A DNA stretch of 64,000 nt, taken from positions 8,352,001 to 8,416,000 of the forward strand of contig CP068257.2 of assembly GCA_009914755.4 (NCBI GenBank). Direction: 5' to 3'. Origin of the DNA: the human T2T-CHM13v2.0 reference genome, Homo sapiens. A model generated the notes under the pieces. It was given only the letters and a program-made list of their open reading frames with translations. It was not told the origin of the DNA and searched no databases. Shown piece after piece: positions 15,101-57,168 of this stretch (position 1 is the stretch's first letter; each line of letters opens with the position of its first letter). The translations under genes were made by a program, and so were the position numbers.

Positions 15101-18100
15101 GAACTTTCTTTTGATTGAGCAGTTTGGAAACAGTGTTTTTGTAGAATCTGCAAAGGATATTTTGAGCACTTTGACGCCTATGGTGAAAAAGGACATATCT
15201 TCACATGAAATCTAAACAGAAGCTTTCTGAGAAACTTCTTTTTTATGAGTTCATACATCTCACAGAGGTGAAACTTTCTTTTCATTGAGCAGTTTGGAAA
15301 CAGTCTTTTTGTACAGTCTGCAAACAAAATTTCTGCGAAGTTGGAGGCCTATCGTGAAAAAGAAATATCTTCAGATAAAATGTAGACAGAAGTATTCTGA
15401 GAAAATTTTTTGTGATGTATCTATTCATCTCACAGATTTGAATTTTTCTTTTGATGGAGCAGTCTGGAAACAGTCTTTTTGTAGTATCTGCAGAGGGATG
15501 TGTGAAAGCAGTTTAAGGCCTGTGGTGAAAAAGGAAATATCTTCACATAAAAACTAGGTAGAAGCATTCTAAGAAACTTCTTTGTATTGTTTGCATTCAT
15601 CTCAAAGACTTGAACCTGTCTTTGGACTGAGCAGTTTGGAAACTGTCGTTTTGTAGAATCTGTGAAGGGATATTTCTGAGCCCATTGAGGCCTATGGATG
15701 AAATAGGAAATATCTTCACATAAAAACAAGACAGAGGATTTCTGAGAAACTTCTTTGTGATATGTGGTTTCATCTCACAGAGTTGAACCATTCTTTTGGT
15801 TGAGCAGTTAGGAAACAGTATTTTTGTGGGATCTGCAAAGGGATATTTCTGTTCCCATTGACGCCTATGGTGAAAAAGGACATATTTTCACATAAAAAGT
15901 AGACAGAAGCTTTCTGATAAACTTCTTAGTGATGTGTGCTTTCATGTCACAGATTTGAAACTTTCTTTTGATTGAGCAGTTTGGAAACAGTCTTTTTGTA
16001 GAATCTGCAAATGGATATTTGGAGTGCTTTGAGGCCTATGGTGAAAAAGGAAATACCTTCACATGAAATATAAACAGAAGCTTTCTGAGAAACTTCTTTT
16101 TGATGCGTGCATACATCTCACAGAGTTGAACGTTTCTTTTTATTGAGCAGTTTGGAAACAGTCTTTTTGTACAATCTGGAATGGGATATTTCTGAGAATT
16201 TGGAGGCCTATATCGAAAAAGAAATATCTTCACATAAAAACTAGACAGAAGTATTCTGAGAAACTTCTTTGAGATGTATCCTTTCATCTCACAGAGTTGA
16301 ACCTTACTTTTGATGGAGCAGTTTGGAGACAGTCTTTTTGTAGTATCTGCGGAGGGATATCTGAGAGCAGTTTAAGGCCTGTGGTGAAAAAGGAAATATC
16401 TTCACATAAAAACTAGGCAGAAGCATTCTGAGAAACTTCTTTGTGATGTATGCATTCAACTCAAAGAGGTGAAACTTTCTTTGGATTGAGCAGTTTGGAA
16501 ATAGTCCTTTTGCAGAATCTGCAAAGGGATATTTCTCAGTCTATTGAGGCCTATGGTGAAATAGGAAATAACTTCTCATAAAAACCAGGCAGAAGGTTTC
16601 TGAGAAACTTCTTTGAGATATGTGCTTTCATCTCACAGAGCTGAACCTTTCTTTTGGCTCAGAAGTTTGGAAACAGTCTTTGTGTAGAATCTGCAAAGCG
16701 CTATTTTTGAGCACCTTCTGGACTGTGGTGAAACAGAAAATATCTTCACATAAAAACTAGACAGAAGCTTTCTGAGAAACTTCTTTATGATGTGTTCTTT
16801 CATCTCACAGAGTTGTAACTTTCCTTTGATTGAGCAGTTTGGAAACACTCTTTATGGGGAATCTGCAAGTGGATATTTGGAGTCCTTTGTGGCCTATAGT
16901 GGAAAACGAAATATCTTCACATAAAAACTAGACAGAATCATTCTGAGAAACTTCTTTGTGATGTGCACATTCATCACAAAGAGTTGAACATTTCTTTCGA
17001 TTCAGCAGTTTGGAAACAGTCCTTTCGTAGAATCTGTGAAGGGATATTTCTCAGCCCATTGACGCCTATGGATGAAATAGGAAACATTCTCACATAAAAA
17101 CTAGACAGAAAATTTCTGAGAAACTTCCTTATGATATGTGGTTTCATCTCACAGAGTTGAACCATTCTTTTGGTTGAGCAGTTTGGAAACACATTTTTTG
17201 TAGAATCTGCAAGTGGATATTTGGAGCACATTGAGGCCTATGGTGGAAAACGGAATATTTTCACATAAAAATTAGACAGAAGCATTCTGAGAAACTACTT
17301 TGTGATGTGTGCATTCAACCCACAGAGTTCAACCTTTCTTTTGATTCAGCAGTTTTGAAACACTCTTTTTGTAAAATCTGACAGTGGATTTTTGGAGCGC
17401 TTTGAGGCCTACAGTGGAAAAGGAAATATCTTCACATAAATAGTACACAGAAGCATTCTGAGAAACTTCTTTGTGATGTGTGCATTTAACTCAAAGAGTG
17501 CAGTCCTTCTTTAGATTGAGCAGTTTTGAAAGACTCCTTTTGCAGAATCTGCAAGTGGATGTTTGGAGCGCTATGTGGCCTTAAGTGGAAAAGGCAATAT
17601 CTTCACATAAAAACTAGACAACAGCATTCTGAGAAACTTCTTTGTCATGTGTGCATTCATCTCACAGAGTTGAAGCTTTCTTTTGATTGAGCAGTTTTGA
17701 AACACTCTTTTTGTAGAATCTCCAATTGGATACTTGGAGCGTTTTGAGGCTTATGGTAGAAAAGTAAATATTTTCACGTGAAAACTACACAGAAGCATTC
17801 TGAGAAATTGGTTTGTGATGTGTGCATTCAACACACAGAGTTGAACCTTTCTTTTGATTGAGTAGTTTTGAAACACACTTTTTTTTAGGATCTGCAAGTG
17901 GATATTTGGAGTGCTTTGTGGCCTAATGAGGAAAAGGATATATTTTCACATAAAAACTACGGAGAAGCATTCTGAGAAACTTCTTTGTGATGTGTGCATT
18001 CATCTCACAGAGTTCAACCTTTCTTTTGATTGAGCAGTTTTCAACCACTCTTTTTGTAGAGTGTGCAAGTGGATATTTGGAGCACTTTGAGGCTTATGGT

Positions 18101-21100
18101 GGGAAAGGAAATATCTTCACATAAAAACTACAGCGAAGCATTCTGACAAAGTTCTTTGTGTTGTGTGTGTTCAACTCACAGAGTTGAGTCTTTCTTTTGA
18201 TTGAGCAGTTTTGAAACACACTTTTTTTAGAATCTGCAAGTGGATATTTCGAGTGCTTTGCAGCCTCTGTTGGAAAAGGAAATATCTTCACATAAACTAG
18301 ACAGAAGCAATCTGAGAAACTTCTTTGTGATGTGTGCATTCATCTCACAGAGTTGAAACTTTCTTTTGATTGTGAAGTTTTCAAACACTCTTTTTGTAGA
18401 ATCTGCAAGTGGATATTTGGAGGTCTTTGTGACCTACAGGGGAAAAAGAAATATCTTCACATAAAAACTAGACAGAAGCATTCTGAGAAACATCTTTGTG
18501 ATATGTGCATTCATCTCACAGAGTTGAAATTTTCTTTTTATTGACCAGTTTTGAAACGCTCTTTTTGTACAGTCTGCAAGTGGATAATCATAGTGCTTTG
18601 AGGCCTATGGTGGAAAATGAAATATTTTCACAATAAAATTAGACAGAAGCGTTCTGTGATACTTCTTTGTGATATGTGCATTCATCTCACAGAGTTGAAC
18701 CATTCTTTTGATTGAGTAGTTTTGAAATACTCTTTTTGTAGAATCTGCAAGTGGATATTAGGAGCACTTTGTGGCCTATGGCGGAAAAGGAAATATCTTC
18801 ACATAAAAACTAAAGAGAAGCATTCTTAGCTACTTTGTTTTGTGTGCATTCATCTCACAGAGTTAAACCATTCTTTTGATAGAGCAGTTTTGAATGTCTC
18901 TTTTTGTAGAATCTGCAAATGGATATTGGGAGCGCTTTGAGGCCTATGGTGGAAAAGGAAATATCTTCACATAAAAACTACAGAGAAGCATTCTGAGAAA
19001 CTTCTTTGTGATGTGTGCATTCAATTCACAGTGTTCAACCTTTCTTTTGATTGAGCAGTTTTGAAACACTCTTTTTGTAAAATCTGCCAGTGGATATTTG
19101 GAGCGCTTTGAGGCCTATACTGGAAAAGGAAATATCTTCACATAAAGAGTAGACAGAAGCATTCTGAGAAACTTCTTTGTGACGTGTGCATTCACCTCAC
19201 AGAATGGAACCCTTCTTTTGATAGAGCAGTTTTGAAGGACTCCTTTTGTGGAACCTGCAATTGGATATTTGGAGTGCTATGTGACCTTAAGTGGAAAAGG
19301 CAATATCTTCACATAAAAACTAGACAGAAGCATTCTGAGACATTTCTTTGTGATGTGTGCATTCATCTCTCAGAGTTGAAGCTTTCTTTTGATTGAGAAG
19401 TTTTGAAACACTCTTTTTGTATAATCTGCAAGTGGATATTTGGAGCACTTTGCGTTCTATAGTGGAAAAGGAAATATCTTCACATACATATTTGTCAGAA
19501 GCATTCTGAGAAACTTCTTCTTCATGTGTGCATTCATCTAACAGAGTTGAATCTTTCTTTAGATTGAGCAGTTTTGAAACACTCTTTTTGTAGTATCTGC
19601 AAAGGGATACCTGGAGAGGTTTGAGGTCTATGGTGTAAAAGGAAATATCTTCACCTAAAAACTAGAGAGAAGCATTCTGAAAAACTTCTTTGTGGTGTGT
19701 GCATTCATATCACTGTCTTGATCCATTCTTTTGACTGAACAGTTTTGAAACACTCTTTGTGTAGAATCTGCAAGTGGATATTTGGAGCCCTTTGGGGCCT
19801 ATTGTGGAAAAGGAAATGTCTTCAAATAAAGACTAGACAGAAGCATACTGAGAAACTTCTTTGTGATGTGTGCCTTCATCTCACTGAGCTGAAACTTTCT
19901 TTTGATTGAGCAGTTTTGAAACACTGTTTTTATAGAGTGTGCTAGTGGATATTTGGAGCGCTCTGATGCTTATGGTGGAAAAGCAAACATCTTCACATAA
20001 AAACTACAGAGAAGCATTCTGACAAAGTTCTTTGTGCTGTGTGCGTTCAACTCACAGAGTTGAAACTTTCTTTGATTGAGCAGTTCTGAAACACTCTTTC
20101 TGTAGAATCTGCAAGTGAATATTTGGAGCACTGTATGGCCTCTGGTGAAAAAGGAAATATCTTCACATAAAATCTAGACAGAAGCATTCTGAGAAATTTC
20201 TTCATGATGCGTGCTTTCATCTCACAGAGTTGAACCTTTCTTTTGATTGAGCAGTTTTGAAACACTCTTTTTGTAGAGTCTGCAAGTGGATATGTGGATC
20301 ACTTTGAGGCCATGATAGAAAAGGAAATATCTTCACATAAGAACTAGACAGAATCATTCTAAGATACTTCTTTGTGATGTGTACATTCAACTCACAGAGT
20401 TGAACATTTCTTTTGATTGAGCAGTTTTGAAACACTCTTTTTGTAGAATCAGCAGTTGGATATTTAGAGCGCTTTGAGGCCTATGGTGGAAAAAGAAATA
20501 TCTTCACATAAAAACTAGACAGAAGCATTCTGAGAAACTTTTTTGTGATGTGTGCATTCAACTCACCAAGTTGAACATGTCTTTTTATTGAGCAGTTTGG
20601 ATACATTCTTTTCGTACCATCTTCAAATTTGTATTTGGACAGCTTTGAGGCCTAAAGTGGAAAAGGAAATATCTGCACATAAAAACTAGACAGAAGCATT
20701 TGGAAAAACTTCTTTGTGATGCGTGCATTCATCTCACAGAGTTGAACCATTCTTTTCATTGAGCAGTTTTGAAGCACTCTTTGTAGAATCTGCAAGTGGA
20801 TATTTCGATCTCTTTGAGGCATACAGTGGAAAAGAATATATCTTCCCTTAAAAACTAGCCAGAAGCATTCTGAGAAAGTTCTTTGTGATGCGTGTATTCA
20901 ACTCACAGAGTTCAACCTTTATTCTGATTGGGCAGTTTTGAAACACACTTTTTGTAGAATCTGCAATTGGATATTTGGATCGCTTTGCAGCCTCTTGTGG
21001 AAAAGGAAATATCTTCATATAAAAACTACAGGGAATCATTTTGAGAAACTTCTTTGTGATGTGTGCTTTCAGCTCGCAGAGTTGAAACTTTCTTTTGATT

Positions 21101-24100
21101 GTGAAGTTTTGAAACACTCTTTTTGTAGAATCTGCAAGTGGATATTTAGAGTGCTTTGACGCCTATGGTGGAAAAGGAAATATCTGCACATGAAAACTAG
21201 AGAGAAGCATGCTGAGAAACTTCTTTGTGTTGTGTGCATTCATCTCACAGAGTTGAACTTACTTTTTGTTGAGCAGTTTGGAAACACTCTTTTTGTAGAG
21301 TCTGTCATTGGATATTTGGAGCGCTGTGAATCCTATGGTGGAAAAGGACATATCTTCACATAAGAACTATAAAGCAGGTTTTCTAAAAACAACCTTGTAA
21401 TGTGTGCATTCATCTCACAGAGGTAAGTGTTTCTTTTCTCCTATCAGTCTGGAAACTCTGTTCTTGTACAATCTCAAAGGGGGTATTTTTGAGCACTTTG
21501 AGGCCTATTGTGACAAAGGAAATATCTTCACATTCAAAGTATAAAGAAAGTTTCTGAGATACTTCTTTGTGATATGTGTATTCATCTCACAGATTTGAAC
21601 GTCTCTTTTAATTTAGCCCTTTGGAAACAGTCTTTTTGAAGAATCTGCAAACGGATATATGTGAGCACTTTGAGGCCTATGCAGGAAAAGAAGTATCTTC
21701 ACAGAAAACTATAAAGTAGGTTTCTGAGAAACTGTTTTTTGATGTCTGCATTCATTTCACAGAGGTAAACAATTATTTTCTTTGATCAGTTGGGAAACTC
21801 TGTTCTTGTAGGATCTGCTAAGGGACATGTTTGAGTGCCTAGAGCCCTATTGTGAAAAAGATATTGTCTTCACATAAAAACTAGACAGAATTCTACTGAG
21901 AAACTGCTTGGTGATGTGCGCATTCATCTCACAGAATTGTAACTTTCCTTTGATTAATCAGTTTAGAAACGTCTTTTTGTGGAATCGGTAAAGGGATATT
22001 TCTGATCACTTTGAGGCCTATGGTGAAACAGAAAGTATCTTCACATAAAAACTAGACTAAAGATTTCTGAGAAACTGCTTTGTGATGTATGCATTCATCT
22101 CACAGAGTTCAACAATTCTTTTGATGGAGCAGTTGGGAAACCACCTTTTTGTAGAATCTGCAAAGGGATATTTGTGAGCACTTTGAGGTCTATGGTTAAA
22201 AGGAAATATCTTCACATAAAAACTATAAAGAAGGTTTGTGAGAAACTTCTTTATGATGTGTGCATTCATCTCACAGAGTTGAACCATTCCTTTGACTCAG
22301 TGGTTTGGAAACAGTCTTTTTTAGGATCTGCAAAGGGATATTTTTGAGCATTTTAAGGCCCATGGTGAAAAAGGAAACACTTTGACATAAAAACAAGATA
22401 GAAGCTTTCTGAGAATCATCTTTTTGATATTTGCATTTATCCCACAGAGGTGAACCTTTCTTTTGGTGAGCATTTTGGAAGCAGTTTTTGGTAGAATTTC
22501 CAAAGGGTTATTAGTTAGTGTTTTGTGTCCTAAGTTGGAAAATGAATTTTTTTACATAAAAACTAGACAGAATAATTCTGAGAAACTGCCTTGTGATGTG
22601 TGCTTTCATCTCACAGAGGTAACCATTTCTTTTCATTGAACAGATTGGAAATTCTGTTCTTGTAAAATCTGCAAAGAGATACTTGTCAGCACTTTGAGGC
22701 CTATGGTTAAAAGGGAATTATCTTCACATAAAAACTAGACGGAAGCTTTCTGTGAAACATCTTGGAGATATGAGAATTCATCTCACAGAGTTGAAACATT
22801 CTTTTGATTGGGCAGTTTGTAAACAGTGTTTTGGTAGAATCTGCAAATTGATATTTGTGATGCTTTGAAGCCTATGGTGAAAACGAAATATTTTCACATG
22901 AAAACTAGAGAGAAGCTTTCTGAGAAACCTCCTTGTGATGTGTGCATTCATCTCACAGATTTGAAACTTTCTTTGTATTGAGCAATTTGGAAACAGTATT
23001 TTTGTAGAATCTGTAAGGGCATATTTTTGAGTGGTATGAGGCCTATGATGAAATAGGAAATATCTTCACATAAAAACTAGACAGAAACTTTCCGAGAAAC
23101 TTCTTTGTGATGTGTACATTCATCTCATAGAGTTCAACCATTCTTTTGATTGAACAGTTTGGAAACAGTCTTTTTGTAGAATCTGCAAAGGGATATTTAT
23201 GAGTGCTTTGAGGCCTATGGTTAAAAAGGAAATGTATTCACATAAAAAGTATAAACAAGGTTTCTCAGAAACAGCTTTATGATGTATGCATTCATCTCAC
23301 AGAAGTAAACGTTTCTTTTCTCTGATCTGTCTGGAAACTGTTCTTGTAGATTCTGCAAAGGGATAATTGTGAGTGCTTTGAGGCCTATGGTGATAAAGGA
23401 AATATCTTCACATAAAAATTAGAGAGAGGCTTTCTGAGAAACCTCTTTGTGATGTGGACATTCATCTCACAAAGTTGAAACTTACTTTTGATTGAGCAGT
23501 ATGGAAACTGTCTGTTTGTGGAATCTGCAAAGGGATATTTATGAGAGCTTTGAGGCCAATGGTGAAAAAGGAAATATATTCATATAAAAGGTATAAAGAA
23601 GGTTTCTTAGAAACAGCTTTGTGGTGTGTGCATTGATCTCAGAGAGGTAAACGTTTATTTTCTGTGATCAGTCGGAAAACTCTGTTCTTGCAGAATCTGC
23701 AAAGGGATATTTGTGAGTGCTTTGAGGCCTATGGTGAAAAAGAAACTATCTTCACATAAAAAACTAGACAGAAGCTTTCTTAGTGGCTTCTTTGTGATGT
23801 GTGCAATCATCTCACAGAGTTGAACCATTCTTTTCATTGAGCAGTCTGGAAAGAGTGTTTTTATAGAATCTGCAAGGGATATTTGTCACTACTTGGACTG
23901 CTATGGTGAAAAAGGAAATATCTTCACATAAAAAATGGACAGAAGATTTCTGAGAAACCTCTTTGAGATGTGTGCATCCATCTCACAGAGTTCAACCATT
24001 TATTTGATTGAGCAGTTGGGAAGCAGTCTTTTTGCAGAATCTACAAAGGGATATTCCTGAGCACTTTGAGGCCTGTGGTGGAAAAGGAAATATCTTCACA

Positions 24101-26243
24101 TAAAAACTAAAAAGAAGGTTTCTGAGAAACTTCTTTGTGATGTACGCATTCATCTCACAGAGTTGAACTATTCTTTTGATTGAGCACTTTGGAAACAATC
24201 TTTTTGTAGAATCTGCAAAGGGATATTTTTGAGCTCTTTGAGTCCTAGGGAGAAAAAAGAAATATCATCACATAAAAAGTATAAAGAAGGTTTCTGAGAA
24301 ACAGTTTTGTGATGTGTGCATTCATCTCACAGAGAAAAACGTTTGTTTTCTTTGATCAGTCTGGAAATTCTGTTCCTGTAGTATCTTCTAAGGGATAATT
24401 GTGAGCAGATGGAGGCCTATGGTGAAAAAGGAAATGTCTTCATATAAAAATTAGACAGAAGCCTCCTGCGAAACTTCTTAGTGATTTGTGGATTCATCTC
24501 AGAGTTGAAACTTTCTATTCATTGAGCCATTTGGAAACAGTCATTTTGTAGACTCTGCAAATGGATATTTGGAGCACTTTGAGGCCTATGGTGAAAAATG
24601 AAATATATTCACATAAAAACCAGACTGAAAGTTTCTGAGAAACTTCTTTGAGATGTGTGCATTCATCTCACAAAGTTCAATAATTCTTTTTATTGAGCGA
24701 TTTGGAACAATCTTTTTGTAGAATCTGCAAAGAGATATTTGTGAGGGCTTTGAGGCCTATGGTGAAAAATGAAATACCTTCACAGAAAAACTATAAGGAA
24801 GGTTTCTGAGAAACTTCTTTGTGATGTGTACATTCATCTCACACAGTTCAACCTTTCTTTTGATTGAGCAGTTTGGAAACAGTCTTTTTAAATATTCTTC
24901 AAGTGGATACTTGTGAGCACCTTGAGGCTCATGGGGATAAAGGAAACATTCACATAAAAAATTAATAGAAGCTTTCTGAGAAACCACTTTTTGACATGTG
25001 CATTCATCTCACAGAGTTGAACCTTTGTTTTTATTGAGCCGTTTGGAAACAGTCTTTTTGTAGACTCTGCAAATGGATATTTGGAGCACTTTGAGGCCTA
25101 TCATGAAAAAGGAAACATATTCACATAAAAACTACACTGAAGGATTCTGAGAAACTTCTTTGAGCTGTGTGCATTCATCTGACAGTGTTCAATAATTCTT
25201 TTTATTGAGCGGTTTGGAAACAGTCTTTTTGTAGAATCTGCAAAGGGATATTTGTGAGGTCTTTGAGGCCTATGTTGAAAAATGAAATATCTTCACAGAT
25301 AAACCATAAAGAAAGTTTCTGAGAAACTTCTTTGGATGTGTGCATTCATCACACAGAGTTGAAATATTCTTTTGATTGAGGAGTTTCCAAACAGTCTTTT
25401 TGTAGAATCTGCAGAGGGATATTTGTAGCACTTTGAGGCCTATGGTGAATAAGGAAATATATTCACATAAAAACTAGACAAAAGTTTTCCGAGAAACTTT
25501 TTTTGATGTGTGCATTTATCTCGTAGAGTTTAACATTTGTTTTGATTGAGCAGTTTGGAAACAGTCTTTTTGTAGAATCTGCAAAGGGATATTTAGGAGC
25601 AAGTTGAGGCCTATGGTGGAAAAGGAAATATCTTCACATAAAAACTAGAAAGAAGCATTCTGAGTAGCTGCTTTAAGATATGTGTACTCATCTCACAGAT
25701 GTAAACATTTCTTTTCATTGAGCAGTTTGTAAACTCTGTTATTCTAGAGTCTGCAAGGGATATTTTTGAATGCTTTGAGACCCACGTTGAAAAAGGAAGA
25801 ATCTTCACATAAAAACTAGTGAGAAGCTTGCTGAGAAACTACTTTCTGATGTGTTCAGTCATCTAACAGAGTTGAAACTTTCTTTTGATTGAGCAGTTTG
25901 GAAACAGTCTTTTTGTAGACTCTGCAAAGGTATATTTGGGAGTGCATTGAGGCCTATGTTCAGAAAGGAAATATCTTCAAATAAAACTCAGAAGGAAGTT
26001 TTCTGAGAAACTTCTTTGTGATGTACACATTCGTCTCACAGGGTTGAACCATTCTGTTTATTGAGCAGTTTGGAAACAATCTTTTTGTAGAATCTGCAAA
26101 GGGATATCTGTGAGTGCATTGAGGCATATGGTGAAAAAGGAAATCTCTTCACATTAAAAGTAGAAAGAAGTTTTCTGAGTAACTCATTTGTGACATGTGC
26201 ATTTATCACACAGAAGTAAAAATTTCTTCCCATTAAGCAGTTA
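9190..26243 (+). repeat. Alpha satellite in consensus orientation. Sub-blocks: 'ctgcaagtggatatttgg/ggtggaaaagg'-type monomers (9190-~14450 and ~17200-~21300) and 'ctgcaaagggatat.../ggtgaaaaagg'-type monomers (~14450-17200 and ~21300-26243)
   Basis: The monomers are tandem 171-bp units that carry diagnostic substitutions shared within each block. The pJalpha-type motif is retained in two variants, TTCCTTTTCCACCATAG and TTCCTTTTTCACCATAG. I found no CENP-B box. Confidence 0.95.
14465..17200 (+). repeat. Short divergent HOR-like periodicity of ~5 monomers (~860 bp) in alpha satellite
   Basis: The stretch 14975-15835 aligns to 15835-16690, five monomers each, at about 90% identity. In addition 14465-14975 resembles 15835-16345, and 15660 resembles 17035 at an offset of 8 monomers. 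Confidence 0.55.
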
Positions 26244-26244
26244 G
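26243..26244. other. Strand-switch (inversion) breakpoint between alpha-satellite blocks of opposite polarity
   Basis: To the left of the join the monomers read forward (...cacagaagtaaaaatttcttcccattaagcagtt). To the right they read as the reverse complement (agtttttatgtgaagatatttccgttttcaccatagacctcaaaccgcc...). The join links monomer position ~'gagcagtt' to the reverse complement of position ~'cataaaaact', so it is not a same-position hairpin. Confidence 0.9.
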
Positions 26245-28456
26245 TTTTTATGTGAAGATATTTCCGTTTTCACCATAGACCTCAAACCGCCTACATATAT
26301 CCCTTTGCAGATTCTACAAAAAGAGTGTTTCCAAACTACTCAATCAAAGAAAGCTTCCACTCTGTGAGATGAATGCACACATCACAGAGAAGTTTCTCAG
26401 AAAGTTTCTGTCTAGTTTTTATTTGTTGATACTCCCTTTTTCACCATAGGCCTCAAACCGCTCATTAATAACCCTTTGCAGATTCTACAAAAAGACTGTT
26501 TCCAAACTACTCAATCAAAAGAAAGCTTCAACTCTGTGAGGTGAATGCACACATCACAAAGAAGTTTCTCAGAAAGCTTCTGTCTAGTTTTTATTTGAAG
26601 TTGTTTCCTTTTTCAATATAGGCCTCAAAGTGCTCACAAATGTCCCTTTACAGATTTTACAAAAAGACTGTTACCAAACTGCTCAACTGAAACAAAGCTT
26701 CAACTCTTTGAGATGAATGCACACATCACAAAGAAGTTTCTCAGAAAGCTTCCGTCCAGTTTTTATGTGAAGATATTTCCTTTTTCACCATAAGTCTCAA
26801 AGCATTCAAATTATCACTTTGCAGATTCCACAAAAAGACATTTTCCAACCTGCTCTATCTAAAGAAAGGTTTAACTCTGTGAGAAGAATGCACACATCAA
26901 AAATAAGTTTCTCAGAATGCTTCTGTCTAGTTTGTATCTGAAGACATTTCCTTTTTCACCATAGGCCAAAAAGGGATCCCAAATATCCCTTTGTACATTC
27001 TACAAAGGACCGTTTCCAAACTGCTCAATCCAAAGACAGGTTCAACTTTTGGGATGAATGCACACATCACAACGAAGTTTCTCAGAAAGCTTCTGTCTCG
27101 TTTTTGTGTGAAGATATTACTTTTTTCACCATAGGCTTCAAAGAGCTCACAAATATCGCAAAGCAGATTCTACAAAAAAACTCTATCCAAACTGGTCAAG
27201 GAAAAGAACACTTCAAATCTGTGAGATGAATGTGCACATCTCAAATAATTTTCTCAGAAAGCTTCTGTCTAGTTGTTATGTGAAGATATTTCCGTTTTCA
27301 CCATAGACCTGAAACCGCCTATATATAACCCTTTGCAGATTCTACAAAAAGACTGTTTCCAAATGGCTCAATCAAAGGAAGCTTCTACTCTGTGAGATGA
27401 ATGCACATATCAGAGAGAAGTTTCTCAGAAAGTTTCTGTCTAGTTTTTATTTGTTGATACTCCCTTTTTCACCATAGGCCTCAAACAGCTCATAAATAAC
27501 CCTTTGCAGATTCTACAATAGGACTGTTTCCAAACTGCTCAATCAAATGAAAGTTCAGCTGTGTGAGATGAATGCACACATGAAGAAGAAGTTTCTCAGA
27601 ATGTTTCTGTCTAGTTTTTATGTGAAGACACTTCTTTTTCACCATAAGCCTGAAAGTGTTCCCAAATTTTCCTTTGCAGATTCTATGAAAAGACTGTTTC
27701 CAAACTGCTCAATCAAAAGAAAGGTTCAATTCTGTGTGATGAATGCACACATCACAACGAAGTTTCTCAGAAGGCTTCTGTCTAGATTTTATTTGTGGAT
27801 ATTTCCTTTTTCACAATAGGCCTCAGAAAGCTCACAAATATCACTTTGCATATTCTACAAAAAGGCTGTTTCCAATCTGCTCAATGAAAGAAAATTAAAC
27901 TCTGTGAGATGAATGCATGCATCGCAAAGTGGTTTCTTAGAATGCTTCTGTCTAGTTTTTATATGAAGATATTTCCTTTTTCATCACATGCCTCAAAACA
28001 CTCAAAAACATCCATTTGCAGATTCTCCAAAAAGACTGTTTCCAAACTGCTCAATCAAAAGAAAGATTCAAGTCTTTGAGATGCATACACCCATCACAAA
28101 GAAGTTTCCCAGAAAACATGAGTCTAGTTTTTATATGAAGATATTTCCTTTTTCACCATAAGCATCAAAGCATTCACAAATATCACTTTGCAGGTTCTAC
28201 GAAAAGACTGTTTCCAAACTGGTGAATCAAAAGAAAGTTTCAACTCTGTGAGATGAATGCACACATCACAAAGAAGTTCTTCAGAAAGCTGCTGTCTACA
28301 TTTTATTTTTCGATATGTCCTTTTTCACCATTGGATTCAAAGCACTGAAACATATCACTTCGCAGATTCTACAAAAAGACTGTTTCCAAACTGCTCAATC
28401 AAAAGAAAGGTTCAACTCTGTGAGATGAATGCACACATCACAAAGAAGTTTCTCAG
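26244..28456 (-). repeat. Alpha satellite, reverse-complement orientation
   Basis: The tandem 171-bp monomers read ...ccataggcctcaaa..gctcacaaatatccctttgcagattctacaaaaagactgtttccaaactgctcaatcaaaagaaaggttcaactctgtgagatgaatgcacacatcacaaagaagtttctcagaa.gcttctgtctagtttttatgtgaagatatttcc, which is the reverse complement of the consensus. The first ~350 bp (26244-26590) recur at ~95% identity at 27273-27620, an offset of 1029 bp or 6 monomers. Confidence 0.95.
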
Positions 28457-30033
<1,577 letters not shown>

Positions 30034-33000
30034 GAATGTACACATCACAAAGAAGTTTCTCAGAAAGTTTCTTTCTAGTTTTTATGTGAAGATATTTCCT
30101 TTTTCACCATAGTCCACAAGGTGCACCAAATATCTTTTGCAGATTGTACAAAAAGATTTTTTCCAAACTGCTCAATCAAAAGAAAGGTTCAACTCTGTGA
30201 GATGAAATCACAAATCACAAAGAAGTTACTCAGAATGCCTCCGTCTAGTTTTTAAGTGAAGGTATTTCCTGTTACACCATAGACCTCAAAGGGCTCACAA
30301 ATATCCTTTTGCAGATTCTACAAAAAGACTGTTATAGAACTGCTCAATGAAAAGTAAGTTTCAACTCTGTGAGATGAATTCACACCTAAAAAAGAAGTTT
30401 CTTAGAATGCTTCTGTCTAGTTTTTATGTGAAGATATTTCTTTGTCACCATAGGCCTCAAACCACTAAGAAATATCCCTATGCAGCTGTTACAAAAAGAC
30501 TGTTTCCAAACTGCTCAATGAAAAGAAAGATTCTACTTTGTGAGATGAAAACACACATCACAAAGAATTTTCTCAGAAAGTTTTTAGCTAGCTTATATGT
30601 GAAGATATTTCCTCTTTCAGCATAGGCCTCAATGGGCTCAAAAATATCTCTTTTCAGATACTACAAAAGGCCTCGTTCCAAACTGCTCAATCAGAAGAAA
30701 GTTTCAACTCTGTGAGATGAAAGTACACATCACAAGTAAGTTTCTCAGAATATTTTTCTAGTTTTTATGTGAAGATATTTCCTATTTCACCATAAGCCAT
30801 AAAAGTCTCACAAATATCCCTTTGCAGACTCTACAAAAAGCCTGTTTCCAAACAGCTCAATCAAAACAAAGTTTCAACTCTGTGAGATGAATGGACATAT
30901 CACAAAGAAGTTTCTCAGAAGGCTTCTGCCTAGTTTTTATGTGAAGATATGACTTTTTCACCATAGGCCTCAAACTGCTAAGAAATATCCCTTTGCAGAT
31001 TGTACAAAAAGACTGTTTCCAAACTGCTCAATGAAAAGAAAGATTCTACTTTGTGAGATGAAAACACACATCACAAAGAATTTTCTCAGAAAGTTTTTAG
31101 CTAGCTTATATGTGAAGATATTTCCTCTTTCAGCATAGGCCTCAATGGGCTCAAAAATATCTCTTTTCAGATACTACAAAAGGCCTCGTTCCAAACTGCT
31201 CATTCAGAAGAAAGTTTCAACTCTGTGAGATGAAAGTACACATCACAAGTAAGTTTCTCAGAATATTTTTCTAGTTTTTATGTGAAGATATTTCCTATTT
31301 CACCATAAGCCATAAAAGTCTCACAAATATCCCTTTGCAGACTCTACAAAAAGCCTGTTTCCAAACAGCTCAATCAAAACAAAGTTTCAACTCTATGAGA
31401 TGAATGGACATATCACAAAGAAGTTTCTCAGAAGGCTTCTGCCTAGTTTTTATGTGAAGATATGACTTTTTCACCATAGGCCTCAAACTGCTAAGAAATA
31501 TCCCTTTGCAGATTGTACAAAAAGACTGTTTCCAAATTGCTCAATGAAAAGACAGGCTCAACTCTGTGAGATGAATGTGCATATCGTAAAGAAGTTTCTC
31601 AGAATGCCTCTGTCTAGTTTTTATGTGAAGATATTTCGTTTTTCAGCATAGGCCTTAAATGGCTCCCAAATATCCCTCTGCAGATACTACAAAAAGACTA
31701 CTTGAAAACTGTTCAATCAAAGGAATGCTTCATCTCTGTGAAATGAATGCACATATCACAAAGAAGTTTCTCAGAATGCTTCTGTCTAGTTTTTATGTGA
31801 AGATATTTCCTTTTTCACCACAGGCCTCAAAATGCTCCAAATATCCATTTGCAGATTCTACAAAAAGACTGTTTCCAAACAGCTACATGAAGAGAAAGGT
31901 TCAATTCTGTGAGATAAATGCACACATGGAAAAGAAGTTTCTCAGAATGCTTCTGTCTGGTTTTTATCTGACATAATTATTTTTCACCATAGGCCTCAAA
32001 CCGTTCAAAAATATCCCTTTGCATATTGTACAAAAAGACTGTTTCTAAACTGTCAAATGCAAAGAAAGGTTCAACTCTGTGAGATGAAACCACACATCAC
32101 AAAGAAGTTCTTCATAATGCTTCTGTCTGGTTTTTATGTGAAGATATTTCATATTTCACCATAGGCCTCAAAGAGCTCACAAATATCCCTTTGCAGACTC
32201 TACAAAAAGACTGTTTTCGAACTGCTCCATGCAAAGAAAGGTTCAACTCTGTGAGACGAATGCACACATAAAAAAGAAGTTTCTCAGAATGCTTCTGTCT
32301 AGTTTTTTTGTGAAGATATTTCTTTTTCACCATAGGCATCAAACCATTCAGAAATATCCCTTTGTAGATTGTACAAAAATACTGTTTCCAAACTGTTCAA
32401 TCAACAGAAAGGCTCAAACCTGTGAGATGAAAGCACACATCACAAAGAAGTTTCTCAGAATGCTTCTGTCTAGTTTTTATGGGAGGATATTTCTTTTTCA
32501 CCATAGGACGCAAACCCCTCAGAAATATCCCTTTGCAGATTGTAGATAAAGAATGTTTCCTAACTGCTCAATCAAAAGAACAGTTAAAGTCTGTGAGATG
32601 AAAGCACACATCACAAAGAAGTTTCTCAGAAATCTTCTGTCTAGTTTTTATGTGAAGATATTTCCCTTCTAACGATAGGCCTCAAAGAAATCCAAATATC
32701 GATTTGCAGATTCTACAAAATAGTGTTTCCAAACTGCTCAATCAAAAGAAATTTTCAACTCTGTGAGATGAAAACACACATCACAAAGAAGTTCTTCAGA
32801 AAGTTTCTCACTAGATTTTATGTGAAGATATTTAGTTTTTCACCACAAGCCACAAAGTGCTCCAAATATCCATTTGCAGATACTTCAAAAAGAGTTTTTC
32901 CAAAGTGCTCCAAATATCCATTTGCAGATACTTCAAAAAGAGTTTTTCCAAACTGCTCAATCAAAAGGAAATTTCAACCTGTGAGATGAATGCAAACATC

Positions 33001-33884
33001 ACAAAGAAGTTTCTCGGTATGCTTCTGTATAGTTTTTCTGTGAAGATATTTCCCATTTCACCATTGGCCTCAGTGGGCTCACATATATCCTTTTGCATAT
33101 TCTACAAAAGATTGTTTCCGAATTTCTCAATGAAAAGAAAGGTTCATCTCTGGGAGATGAATGCACACATGAATAAGAAGTTTCTCAGAAAGCCTCTGTC
33201 TAGTTTTTGTTTTAAGATATTTATTTTTCACCGTAGGCCTCAAACTGCTCAGAAATATTCCTTTGCAGATTGTACAAAAAGATGGTTTCCAAACTGCTCA
33301 ATGAAAACAAAGGTTCAACACTGTGACATGAATACTCACATCACAGAGAAGTTTTTCAGAAAGCTTCTGTTTAGTTTTTTAAGTGAAAATATTTCCTTTT
33401 TCACCATAGGCCTCAAAGCACTCCAAATATCCTTTTGCAAACTCTACAAAAAGAGAGTTTCCAAACTGTTCAATTAAAAGAAAGATTCAAATCTGTGAGA
33501 AGAAAGTACACATCATGAAGAAGTTTCTCATAATGCTTCTCTCTACTTTTTTTTGTGAAGATATTTCCTATGTCGCCATAGGCCTCAAAGATCTCACAAA
33601 TATCCCATTGCAGATTCTACAAAAAGACAGTTTTTGAACTGCTAAATGAAAAGAAAGGTTCAACTCTGTGAGACGAATGCACACATAATAAATTAGTTTA
33701 TCATAATGCTTCTGTCTAGTTTTTATGTGAAGATATTTCTTTTTCACCATAGGCATCAAACCGTTCAGAAATATCCCTTTGTAGATCGTACAAGAAGACT
33801 GTTTCCAAACTGCTCAATCAAAAGAAAGTTTCAAACTGGTGAGATGAATGAACACATAACAGAGGAGTTTCTCAGGAATCTTTT
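30034..33884 (-). repeat. Alpha satellite, reverse-complement orientation
   Basis: Tandem 171-bp monomers, reverse-complemented, with the pJalpha motif now on the + strand (tatttcctttttcaccatagg). Confidence 0.95.
30497..31528 (-). repeat. Near-identical (~99%) tandem duplication of an alpha-satellite trimer (2 x ~516 bp), with the start of a third, more diverged copy
   Basis: The segment 30497-31012 essentially equals 31013-31528. Both copies include the unusual variants 'gtttttagctagcttatatgtgaag' and 'cataagccataaaagtctcac'. The copy starting at ~31529 diverges after about 70 bp. Confidence 0.88.
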
Positions 33885-34333
33885 TTTTTTTATTTTCATC
33901 ACTTTATTTTACTTTTTTTAAAGTTAGTTTTTTTTTATTTATTATTATTATACTTTAAGTTTTAGGGTACATGTGCACAATGTGCAGGTTTGTTACATAT
34001 GTATACATGTGCCATGCTGGTGTGCTGCACCCACTAACTCGTCATTTAGCATTAGGTATATCTCCCAATTCTATCCCTCCCCCTTCCCCCCACCCCACAA
34101 CAGTCCCCAGAGTGTGATGTTCCCCTTCCTGTGTCCATGTGTTGCTCTCGTTGTTCAATTCCCACCTATGAGTGAGAATATGCAGTGTTTGGTTTTTTGT
34201 TCTTGCGATAGTTTACTGAGAATGATGATTTCGAATTTCATCTATGTCCCTACAAAGTACATGAACTCATCATTTATTATGGCTGCATAGTATTCCATGG
34301 TGTATATGTGCCACATTTTCTTAATCCAGTCTT
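33885..34333 (-). mobile_element. L1PA-like 3'-end fragment (~450 bp), minus strand, 5'-truncated, with a long T-rich (poly-A-derived) tail at 33885-33960
   Basis: The reverse complement reads agactggattaagaaaatgtggcacatatacaccatggaatactatgcagccata...gggtgcagcacaccagcatggcacatgtatacatatgtaacaaacctgcacattgtgcacatgtaccctaaaacttaaagtataataataa. Alpha satellite flanks it on both sides. Confidence 0.92.
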
Positions 34334-37300
34334 CTGTCTTGTTTTTAGTGAACATATTACCTTTCTCAACATAGGCCTCAAAGCAATCCAAACATCCATT
34401 TGCAGACTCTACAAAAAGACTGTTTCCAAACTGATCAATCAAAACAAATTTTTACGTCTGTGAGATGAAAGCACACATCACAAAAAAGTTACTCTGACAA
34501 CTTCTCTCTAGTTTGTATGTGAAGATATTTCCTATTTTAACTGAGGCTATAAAGGGCTCACATATATCCCTTTGAAGGTTCTACAAAAAGACTTTCCAAA
34601 CTGCTCAATCAAAAGAAAGGTTCAACTCTGTGAGATGAATGGACACATCACAAAGAAATTTCTTGGAATGATTCTATCTAGTTTTTATGTGAAGATATTT
34701 CTCTTTCACCATAGGCCTCAAAAGGATCAGAATTATCCCTTTGAAGATTGTACAATAAGCCTCTTTCTAACCTGCTCAATCAAAAGAAAGGTTCAACTCT
34801 GTGAGATGAATGCACACATCACAAGGAAGTTTCTGAGAAAGCTTCTGTTTAGTTTTTATGTGAGGATATTTCGTTTTCCACCATGGGCCTCAATAGCGCT
34901 CAAAATATCCATTTGCAGATTCTAGACAAAGAGTGTTTCCAAACTCCTCAATCAAAAGAAAGTTTCAATTCTGTGAGATGAAAGCACACATCACAAAGAA
35001 GTTTCTTAGAAAGCTTCTTTCTAGTTTTTATGTGAAGATATTTCACATTGCACCATAGTACTCAACACGCTCAGAAATATCCCTTTGCAGATTCTACAAA
35101 AGGGCTGTTTCCAAACTGCTCAATCCAGAGAAAGTTTCAACTATGAGAGATGAATGCACACATCACAAAGAAGTTTCTCAGAATGCTTCTTTCTAGTTTA
35201 TATGTGAAGAAAATTCCTATTTCACCATAGGCAATAAAGGGCTCACAAATATTTTTTTGCAGATTCTACAAAAAGACTGTATCCAAACTGCTCAATAAAA
35301 ATAAAGTTTCAACTCTGTTAGATTAATGGACACATCAAAAAGTAATTTCTCATAAAATTTCTGTTTAGTTTTTATGTGAGGATATTTCCTTTGTCACCAT
35401 TGGCCTCAAAGCACTCCTAATATCCATTTACAGATATCACAAAAAGAATGTTTCCAAACTGCTCAATCAAAAGAAAGTTTTAACTCTGTGAGATGAAAGC
35501 ACACATCTCAAAGAACTTTCTCAGAAAGCTTTGGTCTAGTTTTCATGTAAAGATATTTCCAGTTTCACCGTAGGCCTCAAAGGGCTAAGAAATATCCCTT
35601 TCCAGATTCTAAAAGACAACCATTTCCATACTGCTCAATCAAAAGAAAGCTTAAATTCTGTGAGGTGAATGCACACATCAGAATGAAGTTTCTCAGAATT
35701 CTCCTGTCTAGTTTTTATGTGACAATATTTACTATGTCACTATAAGCTTCAAATGTCTCAAAAATATCCCTTTGCAGATTCTACAAAAATATGGTTTCAA
35801 AAGTGTGAATTAAAAGAAACCTTCAACTCTGTCAGATGAATGAAGACATCACAAAGAAGTTCCTCAGAATGCTTCTGTCTAGTTTAAATGTGAAGATATT
35901 TCTTTTTCACATAGACCTCAAATGGCTCAGAAATACACCTTTGCAGAATGCAGGAAAAGACTGTTTCTAAACTGCTCAAACAAAATAAAGTTTCAACACT
36001 GTGAGATGAATGCACACATCACAAAGAAGTTTCTCAGAAATCTTCTGTCTAGCGTTTATCTCAAGATAATTCCTATTTTGCCATAGGAATCAATGTGCTC
36101 ACAAATATCCCTTTGCAGATTCTACAAAAGTTCTGTTTCCAAGCTGCTCAATCAAAAGAAACGTTCAACATTGTGAGATGAATGCACACATCACAAAGAA
36201 GTTTCTCAGAATGCTTCTGTCTGGTTATTATGTGAAGATACTTCCTTTTTCACCATGGGCCTGAAAACACTCTAAATATCCACTTGCAGATTCTACAAAA
36301 AGAGTGTTTTCAAACTGCTCAATGAAAAGAAAGGTTTAATTCTGTGAGATGAAAGCACACTTCACAAAAGTGTTTCTTAGAAACCTTCTATCTAGTTTTT
36401 ATGTGAAGATATTTCATATTTAAAAATAGGTCTCAATGGGCTCAAAAATATGCTCTTACAGATGCTACAAAAAGAGTGTTTCCAAAAAGCTCAATCAAAA
36501 TAAAGGTTTAACACTGTAAGATAAATGCACACATTACAAAGAAGTCTCTCAGAATTCTTCTGTATAGTTTTTTTGAGAAGCCACTTCTTTTTTCACTATA
36601 AGCCTGTCTGCTCACTAATAGCCCTCTGCAGATACTACAAAATACTCTTTCCAAACTGCTCAATCAAAATAAAGGTTCACATCTGTGAGATGAAAGCCCA
36701 AGTCACAAAGAACTTTCTCAGAAAGTTTCCGTCTAGTTTTTATGTGAAGATATTTCCTATTTCTCCTTAGGCCTCAAAAGGATCACAAATATCCCTATTC
36801 AGATTCTACAAAAAACTGTTTCCAAACTGCTTCATCAAAAGAAAGGTTCAATTCTGTGAGATCAATGCATACATACAAAATTAGTTTCTCAGAATGCTTC
36901 TGTCTAGTTTTTATGTGAAGTTATTACTTTTTCACCATAGGTCTCAAACTGCAAACAAATATTCCTTTGCAGATTGCACAAAAAGTATGTTTCCACACTG
37001 CTCAATGAACAGAAAGGTTCAACTCAGTGAGATGAATGCAAACATCACAAAGAGTTTTCTCAAAATGCTTCTGTCTAGGTTTTAGGTGAAGATATTTACT
37101 TTTTCACCATAGGCCTCAAACTGCTCACAAATATCCCTTTGCAGTTTCTACAAAACGACTTGTTGCCAAACTGCTCAATGAAAGGCAAGGTCCAAATCTG
37201 TGAGATGAAAGGACACATCACAAAGAAGTTTCTCAGAAAGTTTCTGTCTAGTTTTTAAATGCAGATATTTTCTTTTTCACTATAGGCCTCAAAGCACTCC

Positions 37301-40300: not shown

Positions 40301-42151
40301 ATCACAAGGAAGTTTCTCAGAATGTTTCTTTCTAGTTTTTTTTGGAAGATATTTCCTTTTTCACCATAGGCCTCAAAGCACTCCAAATATCCATTTGCAG
40401 ATTCTACAAAAAGACTGTTTACAAACTGCTCAATCAAAAGAAGTTTTCAACACTGTGAGATGAATGCACACATTACAAATTAGTTTCCCAGAAAACTTCT
40501 GTTTAGTTTTTATGTGAAGATATTTCCTTTTTCACCAGAGGCCTCAAAACACTCCAATTATCCATTTGCAGATTATGCAAAAAGAGTATTTCCAAACTGC
40601 TCATTCAAAAGAAACACTTAACTCTTTGAGATGAAAGCACTCATTAAAAATAAGTTTCTCAGAAAGCTTCTGTCTAGCTTTTATGTGAAGATATTTCCAA
40701 TATCACCAAAGGCCTCAATCGGCTGAGAAGTACCCCTTTGGGGATTCTACAATAGGACTGTTTCCAAACTGCTCTAGCAAAGGAAAGGTTCAACTCTGTG
40801 AGATGAATGCACGCATCACTAAAAGGTTTCTCAGAAAATTTCTGTGTAGTTTTTATGTGAAGATATTTCCTACTTCACCCTAGGCCTCAAAGGGTTCACA
40901 ATTATCCCTTTGTAGATTTTACAAAAAGACTGTTTCCAAATCTTCAATCAAAGAAATGTTCAAATGTGTGAGATGAATGCAAACCTCACAAAGAAGTTTC
41001 TCAGAATTCTTCCATCGAATTTTTATGTGATGATATTTCCTTTTTTACCATAGGCCTCAATATGCTCCAAATATACATTTGCAGATTCTACAAAAAGAGT
41101 GTTTCCAAACTGCTCAATCAAAAGAAAAGTTCAACTCTGTGAGATGGAAGCACACATCACAAAGAAGTTTCTTAGAAACCTTCTGTCTCGTTTTTATGGG
41201 AAGATATTTCGTATTTCACCATAGGCCTCAATGGGCTCAGAAATATACCTTTGCAGATTCTACAAAAAGATTGTTTACAAACTGCTCAATCCAAAGACAG
41301 GTTCAACACTCTGAGATTAATTCACACATCACAAAGAAGTTTCTCAGAAAGCTTCTGTCTAGTTTTTATGTGAAGATATTTCCTTGCTCACCATAGGCCT
41401 CAAACTGCTCACAAACATCCCTCTACAGATACTACAAAAAGACTGTTACCAAACTGTTCAATCAACAGAAGGGTTCAACTCTGTGTGGTAAATGCACACG
41501 TCACCAAGAAGTTTCTCAGAATGCTTCTGTCTAGTTTTTATGTGAAGATATTTCCTTTCTCATGAAGGCCTCAAACCACTCCAATTATCCATTTGCAGAT
41601 TCTACAAAAGATGGTTTCCAAACTACTCAATGAATAGAAAGGTTCAACTATGTGAGATGAAAGCACACATCACAAAGAAGTTTCATAAAATGTTGCTTTC
41701 TAGTTTTTAAGTGAAGATATTTCCTTTTTCACCATAGTCCTCAAAGTGCTCCAAATATCCATTTGCAGATTCTATAAAAAGTGTGTTTTCAAACTGCTCA
41801 ATCAAAAGAAAGGTTCAACTCTGTGAGATGGAAGCACACATCACAAATAAGTTTCCAGAAATCTTCTGACTAGTTTTTATATGAAGATATTTCCTATTTC
41901 ACCATGGACCTCAATGAGCTCACAAATATCCCTTTGCTGATTCTACAAAAGGACTGTTTTGAAACTGCTCAATGAGAAGAAAGGTTCAACTCTGTGAGAC
42001 GAATGCATACATCACAAAGAAGTTTCTCAGAATGCTTCTGTCTAGTTTTTAGGTGAAGATATTTTCTTTTTCACCATAGGCCTCAAAGTGCTCACAAATA
42101 TCTCCTTGCAGATTCTACAACAACAGAGTATCCAAATTGATTAATCAAAAG
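34334..42151 (-). repeat. Alpha satellite, reverse-complement orientation
   Basis: Tandem 171-bp monomers in reverse-complement orientation. They are diverged from one another, and I saw no CENP-B boxes. Confidence 0.95.
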
Positions 42152-53400: not shown

Positions 53401-53494
53401 ACTGGAATGCAGTGGAGTGCAGTGGAGTAGAGTGGAGTGGAGTGGAGTGGAATGGAATGGAATGGAGTGGAATAGAAAGCAATAGAATGGAATG

Positions 53495-56770: not shown

Positions 56771-57168
<398 letters not shown>

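What the first reader, a model, noticed from the sequence alone, without database searches (positions are those of the whole stretch)
26200..26300. Abrupt strand switch inside the alpha-satellite array
Alpha satellite reads in consensus orientation from 1 to 26243 and as the reverse complement from 26244 to 44105. The join links two different positions within the monomer, so it is an inversion breakpoint, not a fold-back or palindrome. Both sides belong to the same 'ctgcaaagggatat / ggtgaaaa' monomer class. The first ~350 bp on the right also recur 1029 bp downstream. Together this suggests the inversion happened inside an existing local array rather than bringing together unrelated arrays. 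Polarity switches like this mark evolutionary layer boundaries or inversions in pericentromeres, and they can also signal assembly errors.
Basis: seen in the sequence. Interest (0 to 1): 0.6.

Follow-up and report, generated by a model that had tools for sequence, protein, structure and literature searches.

The report
Old inversion breakpoint in alpha satellite
The strand flip at 26,242/26,243 is a real, ancient rearrangement scar inside decayed pericentromeric alpha satellite; it is not an assembly error or a palindrome, and scars of this kind are already known to be common in such DNA.

Summary
A scan with the 171-bp alpha consensus finds 152 monomers on + (54-26242), then 87 on - (26242-44077, with a partial monomer to 44105). 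A (GGAAT)n HSat3-like array follows.

The join is out of phase. The left monomer stops at consensus position ~72 and the right one starts at ~163 going down. At most 1 nt (T) is shared and there is no filler or transposon. The arms match only at the 80% background level of unrelated monomers, so this is not a fold-back or a recent inverted duplication.

The exact junction 26-mer occurs in five metagenome contigs, probably host contamination. All are collinear across the join with the same phase. One matches the window with 3 mismatches in 1.7 kb. Another type is ~3% diverged and leaves alpha satellite after two inverted monomers. A mis-join is therefore essentially excluded. The junction is old and sits in a block that appears to exist in several copies.

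The two flanks share one majority consensus but differ in composition: the left is a mix of three subtypes and the right is nearly pure.

Strand switches in divergent alpha satellite are already catalogued (T2T-CHM13). The finding is ordinary and of low interest.

The parts
54..26242 (+). Monomeric alpha satellite in consensus orientation (152 monomers). Class A runs 54-14369, the class B island 14370-17113, class A' 17114-21384 and class B 21385-26242. An L1 fragment interrupts it at 8664-9186.
   Evidence: nhmmer hits; diagnostic positions 74/81/102/103/135/164; pairwise identity ~0.78-0.83 with a flat lag profile, so no HOR
21385..26242 (+). Left flank 'B2'. Its majority consensus equals that of the right flank, but it is an irregular mix of three subtypes (S1 R-like 10, S2 9, S3 9). 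It is slightly more diverged from the consensus (87.4% vs 89.2% identity).
   Evidence: (Mann-Whitney p=0.018; AUC 0.92)
26174..26242 (+). Truncated last + monomer, consensus positions 4-72
   Evidence: sequence
26242..26243 (.). Breakpoint junction ...GCAGTT|AGTTTTTATG... It has <=1 nt (T) of possible microhomology, no inserted bases and no transposon sequence.
   Evidence: The 26-mer across it is unique in the window and present in 5 metagenome contigs.
26243..26402 (-). Truncated first - monomer, consensus positions 163 down to 3
26243..44105 (-). Monomeric alpha satellite in reverse-complement orientation: 87 monomers plus a 28-bp partial one cut at consensus position ~146. It is nearly pure S1 subtype and is interrupted by L1 pieces at 28457-30033, 33876-34331 and 42160-43333.
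26242..26590 (-). Copy c1 of a ~2-monomer segment that abuts the junction. It is paired with c2.
   Evidence: 92.9% identity to c2 over 294 columns against 80.3% beyond that. Monomer pairs 26242/27262 and 26406/27434 are both at 0.93.
27270..27620 (-). Copy c2, 1028 bp downstream of c1. The sequence left of c2 has no counterpart left of c1, because the junction cuts c1.
   Evidence: c1 copies and c2 copies cluster separately across all contigs, so the duplication predates the divergence of the copies.
14370..17113 (+). Class B island 'B1' on the + strand, statistically indistinguishable from the - block
   Evidence: AUC 0.64, similar to the R-internal control at 0.655
43392..43561 (-). The only clear S2-subtype monomer in the - block, four monomers from its far end. 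Its three nearest neighbours are S2 monomers of the left flank (23604, 22575, 23262).
44106..64000 (+). (GGAAT/GGAGT)n pentamer satellite, HSat3-like, abutting the - alpha block

Best explanation
The strand switch is a genuine, evolutionarily old breakpoint in dead (non-HOR, CENP-B-box-free) monomeric alpha satellite of a primate pericentromere. Two double-strand-break ends, at unrelated positions of two monomers, were joined without homology. The likely route is classical end joining, or a replicative template switch with <=1 nt of microhomology. Most likely this is the left end of an inversion that arose within the local class-B alpha domain. Its reciprocal end is not preserved in the window: it lies beyond, or was overwritten by, the HSat3 array at 44106. 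The junction has no function of its own. Its consequence is structural: in-register unequal exchange and gene conversion cannot cross it, so the two flanks have since evolved as separate sub-arrays. Shown: the junction anatomy, the lack of arm homology, the presence of the junction in independent contigs, and the divergence among copies. Inferred: the repair pathway, in-situ inversion as opposed to inverted insertion, the age, and the barrier effect.
For: There is one strand switch among 239 monomers, and it is out of phase (72|163). The junction has at most 1 nt of shared sequence and no filler or transposon. Left-versus-right alignments reach only 79-82% in every register. The anti-diagonal identity next to the junction is 0.80-0.82, against a background of 0.80+-0.01. 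Inverted repeats across the junction are 75-84% complementary in every register. The junction 26-mer occurs in 5 metagenome contigs, all collinear with the same 72|163 phase. L001 has 3 mismatches across 25130-26829, and L001 and L004 are 100% identical to the window over 26243-26574. The L002/L003 type is 2.7% diverged over 4.27 kb and still carries the identical junction, so the junction predates that divergence. The flanks share one consensus, and an R-like island lies on the + strand at 14370-17113. The single S2 monomer of the - block sits at its far end. Published work states that divergent alpha satellite contains many inversions and strand switches, alongside L1 insertions and HSat expansions (bioRxiv 10.1101/2021.07.12.452052; PMC9549924; PMC2729386). 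All three kinds of feature occur in this window.
Against: No reciprocal breakpoint is present. The - block ends against HSat3 at consensus position ~146, not at the position 73 that a simple two-break inversion predicts. Subtype composition changes abruptly at the junction (AUC 0.92), which also fits an inverted insertion of foreign class-B alpha. The far-end hint rests on one clear monomer and was noticed post hoc. The repair pathway is inferred only from junction anatomy.
Confidence: 0.6

Rival explanations
1. Inverted duplicative transposition. A block of class-B alpha satellite, possibly together with the adjoining HSat3, was copied or moved from elsewhere in the pericentromere or from another chromosome. 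It was inserted in the opposite orientation next to the left flank, so 26242/26243 is an insertion boundary rather than an inversion end.
For: Subtype composition changes abruptly at the junction: three mixed subtypes on the left and 79/83 S1 on the right, AUC 0.92. No reciprocal inversion breakpoint is in the window. The region appears to be multi-copy: contigs are mosaics of at least 3-4 sequence types, and the L003 type leaves alpha satellite after two inverted monomers for non-satellite DNA. That pattern is typical of pericentromeric segmental duplication.
Against: Both flanks have the same majority consensus. R-like monomers already exist on the + side at 14370-17113. An S2 monomer typical of the left flank lies at the far end of the - block. 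The copies that share the junction show that duplication happened after the junction formed, not that duplication created it.
Confidence: 0.3
2. Fold-back (palindromic) inverted duplication that has since decayed.
For: Opposed alpha arrays necessarily form long imperfect inverted repeats, for example arms 25569-26228 and 26347-27006 at 80% complementarity.
Against: The junction is asymmetric (72 vs 163). Arm-to-arm identity equals the background between unrelated monomers in every register. Subtype composition differs between the arms.
Confidence: 0.03
3. Assembly mis-join of two alpha-satellite contigs.
For: Satellite DNA is prone to mis-assembly, and no reads are available here.
Against: The identical junction, with collinear flanks of 0.3-4 kb on each side, is present in five contigs from separate metagenome records. 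One has 3 mismatches in 1.7 kb against the window.
Confidence: 0.02

Closest known systems
Inversion breakpoints (strand switches) in divergent or monomeric alpha satellite, as catalogued for T2T-CHM13 (Altemose et al., bioRxiv 10.1101/2021.07.12.452052, Fig. 2F; also Miga & Alexandrov review PMC9549924; Shepelev et al. 2009 PMC2729386)
   Same: It is a polarity change inside contiguous non-HOR alpha satellite flanking a centromere. L1 insertions and an adjoining HSat expansion accompany it, exactly the 'decay' signature these papers describe.
   Different: Nothing differs in kind. The particulars established here are the out-of-phase 72|163 join with <=1 nt of homology, the evidence that the junction is shared by several ~2-5% diverged copies, and the change of subtype composition at the join.
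The 1.7-Mb inversion in the active chr1 HOR array and inversions in inactive HORs of chr3, 16 and 20 (same paper)
   Same: A strand switch within alpha satellite.
   Different: Those lie in homogeneous HOR arrays, and the chr1 one is polymorphic among people, so it is recent. This one lies in ~80%-identical monomeric alpha and is old.
Pericentromeric segmental duplications containing monomeric alpha satellite
   Same: Several diverged copies (about 97%, with stretches of 95% and 99.8%) share the junction-bearing block. One has a different downstream context.
   Different: These tools could not show that the copies lie in one genome, or where. The contigs may be partly chimeric de Bruijn paths.
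L1 insertion with an inverted 5' part (twin-priming-like), such as the element at 28457-30033 in this window
   Same: It also produces a local strand flip with a non-homologous internal junction.
   Different: The alpha-satellite junction contains no L1 sequence, poly-A tail or target-site duplication, so it was not made by retrotransposition.

Membership tests
Alpha satellite | Tandem ~171-bp monomers matching the alpha consensus | tested here: met
   239 nhmmer hits with ~171-bp spacing across 54-44077
Monomeric (non-HOR) divergent alpha satellite | Neighbouring and distant monomers equally ~70-85% identical, with no higher-order periodicity | tested here: met
   Block means are 0.77-0.835 and lag profiles are flat, apart from three small local duplications
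Monomeric (non-HOR) divergent alpha satellite | A-type monomers without CENP-B boxes | tested here: met
   No match to TTCGNNNNANNCGGG on either strand. The consensus has GGTGGAAAAGG or GGTGAAAAAGG at that site. pJalpha binding itself cannot be tested here.
Named suprachromosomal family / layer (SF4-SF18) | Match to the family-specific monomer consensus or HMM | not tested
Simple two-break inversion | Strand switch with a non-homologous junction | tested here: met
Simple two-break inversion | Reciprocal breakpoint with complementary monomer phases (- monomer ending at position 73 joined to + positions 164-171) | tested here: not met
   There is only one strand switch in the window. The - block ends at consensus position ~146 against HSat3. 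The reciprocal end may lie outside the window or may have been destroyed.
Fold-back / palindromic inverted duplication | Symmetric junction, and arms homologous above background | tested here: not met
   The join is 72 vs 163. The arms are 79-82% identical in all registers with no anti-diagonal excess.
NAHR-mediated inversion | Breakpoints lying inside high-identity inverted repeats | tested here: not met
   No inverted pair rises above the monomer background, and the junction is out of phase with <=1 nt of homology
Assembly mis-join | Junction absent from independent data | tested here: not met
   The junction is present in 5 independent contigs
Segmental duplication (paralogous copies >=1 kb, >=90% identical) | Two or more diverged copies in one genome | tested here: inconclusive
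   The L002/L003 type is 97.3% identical over 4.27 kb with a different downstream context. L001 and L004 are mosaics of window-type and other types within single-sample contigs. The source genomes and loci are unknown.

The most novel reading that the evidence does not exclude
The 17.9-kb minus block is an in-situ inversion whose right breakpoint later became the seeding or insertion site of the HSat3 array. The strand switch has since acted as a barrier to homogenisation, producing the distinct subtype compositions on its two sides. The junction-bearing block was then spread to several pericentromeric sites, so this exact 72|163 join would be a shared-derived marker for dating and ordering those duplications across apes.
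Probability: 0.15. Interest if true: 0.35.

Novelty: already known. Interest (0 to 1): 0.15.

Why it matters
The junction matters mainly as a quality check and a marker. It shows that this polarity switch is biological rather than an assembly artefact. It is also a unique, datable sequence tag (CATTAAGCAGTTAGTTTTTATGTGAA) inside otherwise hard-to-map monomeric alpha satellite that seems to exist in several diverged copies. Such a tag could anchor reads, separate paralogous pericentromeric copies, and help order inversion, duplication, L1 insertion and HSat3 expansion during centromere decay. It does not reveal a new kind of element or mechanism.

Tried and rejected
1. Recent inverted duplication or palindrome: rejected. 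Left-versus-right blastn gives 79-82% in every register, the anti-diagonal monomer scan shows no excess, and inverted repeats are at background level.
2. Transposon-mediated junction: rejected. The four L1 pieces lie elsewhere and none is at the join.
3. HSat3 boundary as the reciprocal breakpoint: rejected, because the monomer phase is ~146 rather than 73.
4. HOR structure on either side: rejected, because the lag profiles are flat.
5. The minus block's first 13 monomers as an ancient inverted copy of the B1 island: not significant. The best register scores 0.825 against a block mean of 0.817.
7. Junction search in bacterial/archaeal genome contigs and in viral contigs: 0 hits each. The alpha/HSat3 join in genome contigs: 0 hits.
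8. Using the 93% c1/c2 repeat to bracket the age of the inversion: abandoned. It could be an older duplication cut by the break, or a later gene-conversion tract that stopped at the junction, and both would start exactly at the join.
9. B2-like composition at the far end of the minus block: only one monomer (43392) is convincingly S2, and the two rule-based 'S3' calls there are ambiguous.
Full report
**What is in the window.** A 171-bp alpha-satellite consensus searched with nhmmer gives 239 monomer hits. There are 152 consecutive hits on the + strand from 54 to 26242, then 87 consecutive hits on the - strand from 26242 to 44077. A 28-bp partial monomer runs to 44105, where a (GGAAT/GGAGT)n pentamer satellite of HSat3 type starts and continues to the end of the window. 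GC skew changes sign at about 26 kb. Four gaps in the monomer series are L1 fragments. Pairwise monomer identity is 0.77-0.835 everywhere and does not depend on monomer lag, so this is monomeric alpha satellite and not a higher-order repeat. There is no CENP-B box.

**The junction.** The sequence reads ...CCCATTAAGCAGTT|AGTTTTTATGTGAAG..., with the join between 26242 and 26243.
- The last + monomer (26174-26242) covers consensus positions 4-72.
- The first - monomer (26243-26402) covers positions 163 down to 3.
- The join is therefore out of phase and asymmetric. A fold-back would join a position to itself.
- From the consensus and from the 93% relative at 27270 (upstream ...TTCTGTC|TAGTT), at most one base, the T at 26242, can be assigned to both sides.
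- There is no inserted sequence, no transposon sequence, no poly-A tail and no target-site duplication.

This anatomy fits non-homologous end joining or a template switch with minimal microhomology. It does not fit homologous recombination between inverted repeats. The pathway is an inference.

**Not an inverted duplication.**
- blastn of 26243-44105 against 1-26242 gives 761 minus-strand alignments, all at about 79-82% identity in every monomer register.
- In a monomer-by-monomer anti-diagonal scan, the registers abutting the junction score 0.80-0.82 against a background of 0.798+-0.011.
- The repeat finder reports only inverted pairs of 75-84% complementarity in all registers.

**Monomer classes.** Six consensus positions (74, 81, 102, 103, 135, 164) split the window into these segments:

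| Segment | Coordinates | Strand |
|---|---|---|
| Class A | 54-14369 | + |
| Class B island (B1) | 14370-17113 | + |
| Class A' | 17114-21384 | + |
| Class B (B2) | 21385-26242 | + |
| Class B (R) | 26243-44105 | - |

- The three class changes on the + side keep the 171-bp phase and have no strand switch.
- B2 and R have the same majority consensus, apart from a CpG-decay position (117) and the alignment end.
- The two flanks are nonetheless different populations. A cross-validated classifier separates B2 from R with AUC 0.92 (label-permutation null 0.51+-0.09). B1 versus R gives 0.64, and the two halves of R give 0.655.
- B2 is an irregular mix of three subtypes: S1 (R-like, 10 monomers); S2 (9 monomers, 14 consensus differences including 83G, 15G, 72C and 67T); and S3 (9 monomers, with 53A, 48C, 164T and 166A).
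- R is S1 in 79 of 83 monomers.
- B2 is also slightly more diverged from the consensus, at 87.4% identity against 89.2% (p=0.018).
- So the junction coincides with a change of composition inside one broad class.

**The recurrence.** 26242-~26535 matches 27270-~27563 (offset 1028) at 92.9%. The per-50-bp identity is 0.86-1.00 up to about 26590. The remaining four monomers of the 6-monomer interval match at 80.3%. Homology starts exactly at the junction. There are two readings of this. One is an older duplication that the break cut. The other is a later gene-conversion tract that could not extend past the point where orientation changes. I could not tell them apart, so the repeat does not bracket the age of the junction.

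**Independent evidence for the junction.** The 26-mer CATTAAGCAGTTAGTTTTTATGTGAA is unique in the window, even with 3 mismatches allowed. It occurs in five metagenome contigs from separate records, L001-L005. I presume these are host contamination. It was not found in bacterial/archaeal genome contigs or in viral contigs.
- All five contigs are collinear with the window on both sides of the join.
- All five show the same 72|163 phase by nhmmer.
- L001 has only 3 mismatches over 25130-26829, then about 5% divergence to 28463.
- L004 carries L002-type variants over 25665-26025, is identical to the window over 26026-26600, and is about 1.7% diverged after that.
- L002 and L003 come from different records, are 99.8% identical to each other, and are 2.7% diverged from the window over 4.27 kb.
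- L003 keeps only two inverted monomers after the junction. It then has a 54-bp alpha piece that is not orthologous to the window, followed by 2.7 kb of non-satellite DNA. L002 ends exactly at the window-equivalent position 26574.
- Across all contigs the c1 copies cluster together (95-100%) and the c2 copies cluster together (95-99%), with 91-93% between the two groups.

I draw three conclusions from these contigs:
1. The junction is real, and a mis-join is essentially excluded.
2. It is older than the 2.7-5% divergence among the copies that share it. At roughly 0.5-1 x 10^-9 substitutions per site per year per lineage, that is on the order of 10-30 million years. This is an inference, and pericentromeric mutation rates are uncertain.
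3. The mosaic contigs and the different downstream context indicate several paralogous copies in one genome, or chimeric assembly paths through such copies. That pattern is usual for pericentromeric segmental duplication. I could not establish the species or the loci. The near-identity of L001 suggests the window and that sample come from the same species, probably human.

**Inversion or inverted insertion?** Only one breakpoint is in the window. A simple two-break inversion predicts a reciprocal join in which a - monomer ends at position 73. The - block instead ends at position ~146 against HSat3. The reciprocal end therefore lies elsewhere or has been overwritten.

Three observations favour a local origin:
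- The flanks share one consensus.
- The R-like B1 island lies on the + side.
- The only convincing S2-type monomer in the whole - block (43392) lies four monomers from its far end. It is 91.7% identical to the S2 consensus against 88.0% to S1, and its three nearest neighbours are B2 monomers. A simple inversion would place the former neighbours of B2 at exactly that end. This last point rests on one monomer and was seen post hoc.

Two observations favour insertion: the abrupt change of composition at the junction, and the multi-copy nature of the region. I put an in-situ inversion at about 0.6 and an inverted duplicative insertion at about 0.3.

**Comparison with what is known.**
[quoted passage not shown] It quantifies inversion breakpoints (strand switches) per megabase, and describes the flanks as accumulating mutations, inversions, transposon insertions and other satellite expansions.
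- The Miga and Alexandrov review lists deletions, inversions, transposon insertions and HSat expansions as the decay signature of abandoned centromeres.
- Shepelev et al. 2009 map inversion breakpoints in monomeric layers and propose that an inversion can cut a segment off from homogenisation.

This window shows that whole signature. The feature is therefore an instance of an already known and common kind. What I add is the base-level anatomy, the exclusion of artefact and palindrome, the evidence of age and multiple copies, and the subtype change at the join.

**Verdict.** The kind of feature is already known, and I score interest at 0.15.

Noticed in passing
window 14370, 17114, 21385: There are three changes of alpha monomer class on the + strand: A to the B island, back to A', then to B. 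All keep the 171-bp phase and none has a strand switch. Class A left of the island has 164C, while A' right of it has 164G. The 2.7-kb B island is indistinguishable from the minus-strand block.
   Followed up: partly
window 21385-26242: The left flank is an irregular mix of three monomer subtypes (S1, S2 and S3, at 10, 9 and 9 monomers) with no clear periodicity. It may be a decayed multi-monomer layer, and it was not assigned to any named SF family.
   Followed up: partly
window 28457-30033: This L1 has an inverted 5' part. An ORF2 segment lies on the - strand (28457-29523), joined to the 3' end with poly-A on the + strand (29524-30033). About 1.6 kb of L1 is missing between the two parts. 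The whole element is flanked by a ~30-bp direct repeat of alpha sequence (about 28427-28456 and 30034-30063). It looks like a twin-priming-like single insertion with an unusually long target-site duplication.
   Followed up: partly
window 8664-9186, 33876-34331, 42160-43333: There are three more L1 3'-end fragments: two on the - strand with poly-T at the left, and one on the + strand with poly-A. The first two are 87% identical to each other. Their subfamilies, and hence minimum layer ages, were not determined.
   Followed up: no
window ~30500-30950 vs +513; ~3400-3700 vs +341: There are two very recent local tandem duplications inside the otherwise ~80% identical monomeric arrays. One spans 3 monomers and the other spans 2, and the copies are 96-100% identical per 50-bp bin (monomer pairs 0.988-0.994).
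   Followed up: partly
window 44105/44106: There is a sharp alpha-to-HSat3 junction (...TTTATGTGAAGAT|CGGAGTGCAGTGGAATGG...). The alpha monomer is cut at consensus position ~146. The 20-kb pentamer array is GGAGT-rich (TRF period 5, 71% matches). The junction 33-mer was not found in bacterial genome contigs.
   Followed up: partly
L003 1103-3793; L002 end: In the ~3% diverged copy of the junction block, alpha satellite stops after two inverted monomers plus a 54-bp piece, and 2.7 kb of unidentified non-satellite DNA follows. Contig L002 ends exactly where homology to the window ends (window-equivalent 26574), as expected at an assembly-graph branch between paralogs.
   Followed up: partly
L001 and L004 vs window 25130-28463: These contigs are mosaics. 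L001 is 99.8% window-like up to 26829 and about 5% diverged after it. L004 switches type at about 26026 and again at about 26600. They are either gene-conversion mosaics among paralogs or chimeric short-read assembly paths.
   Followed up: partly
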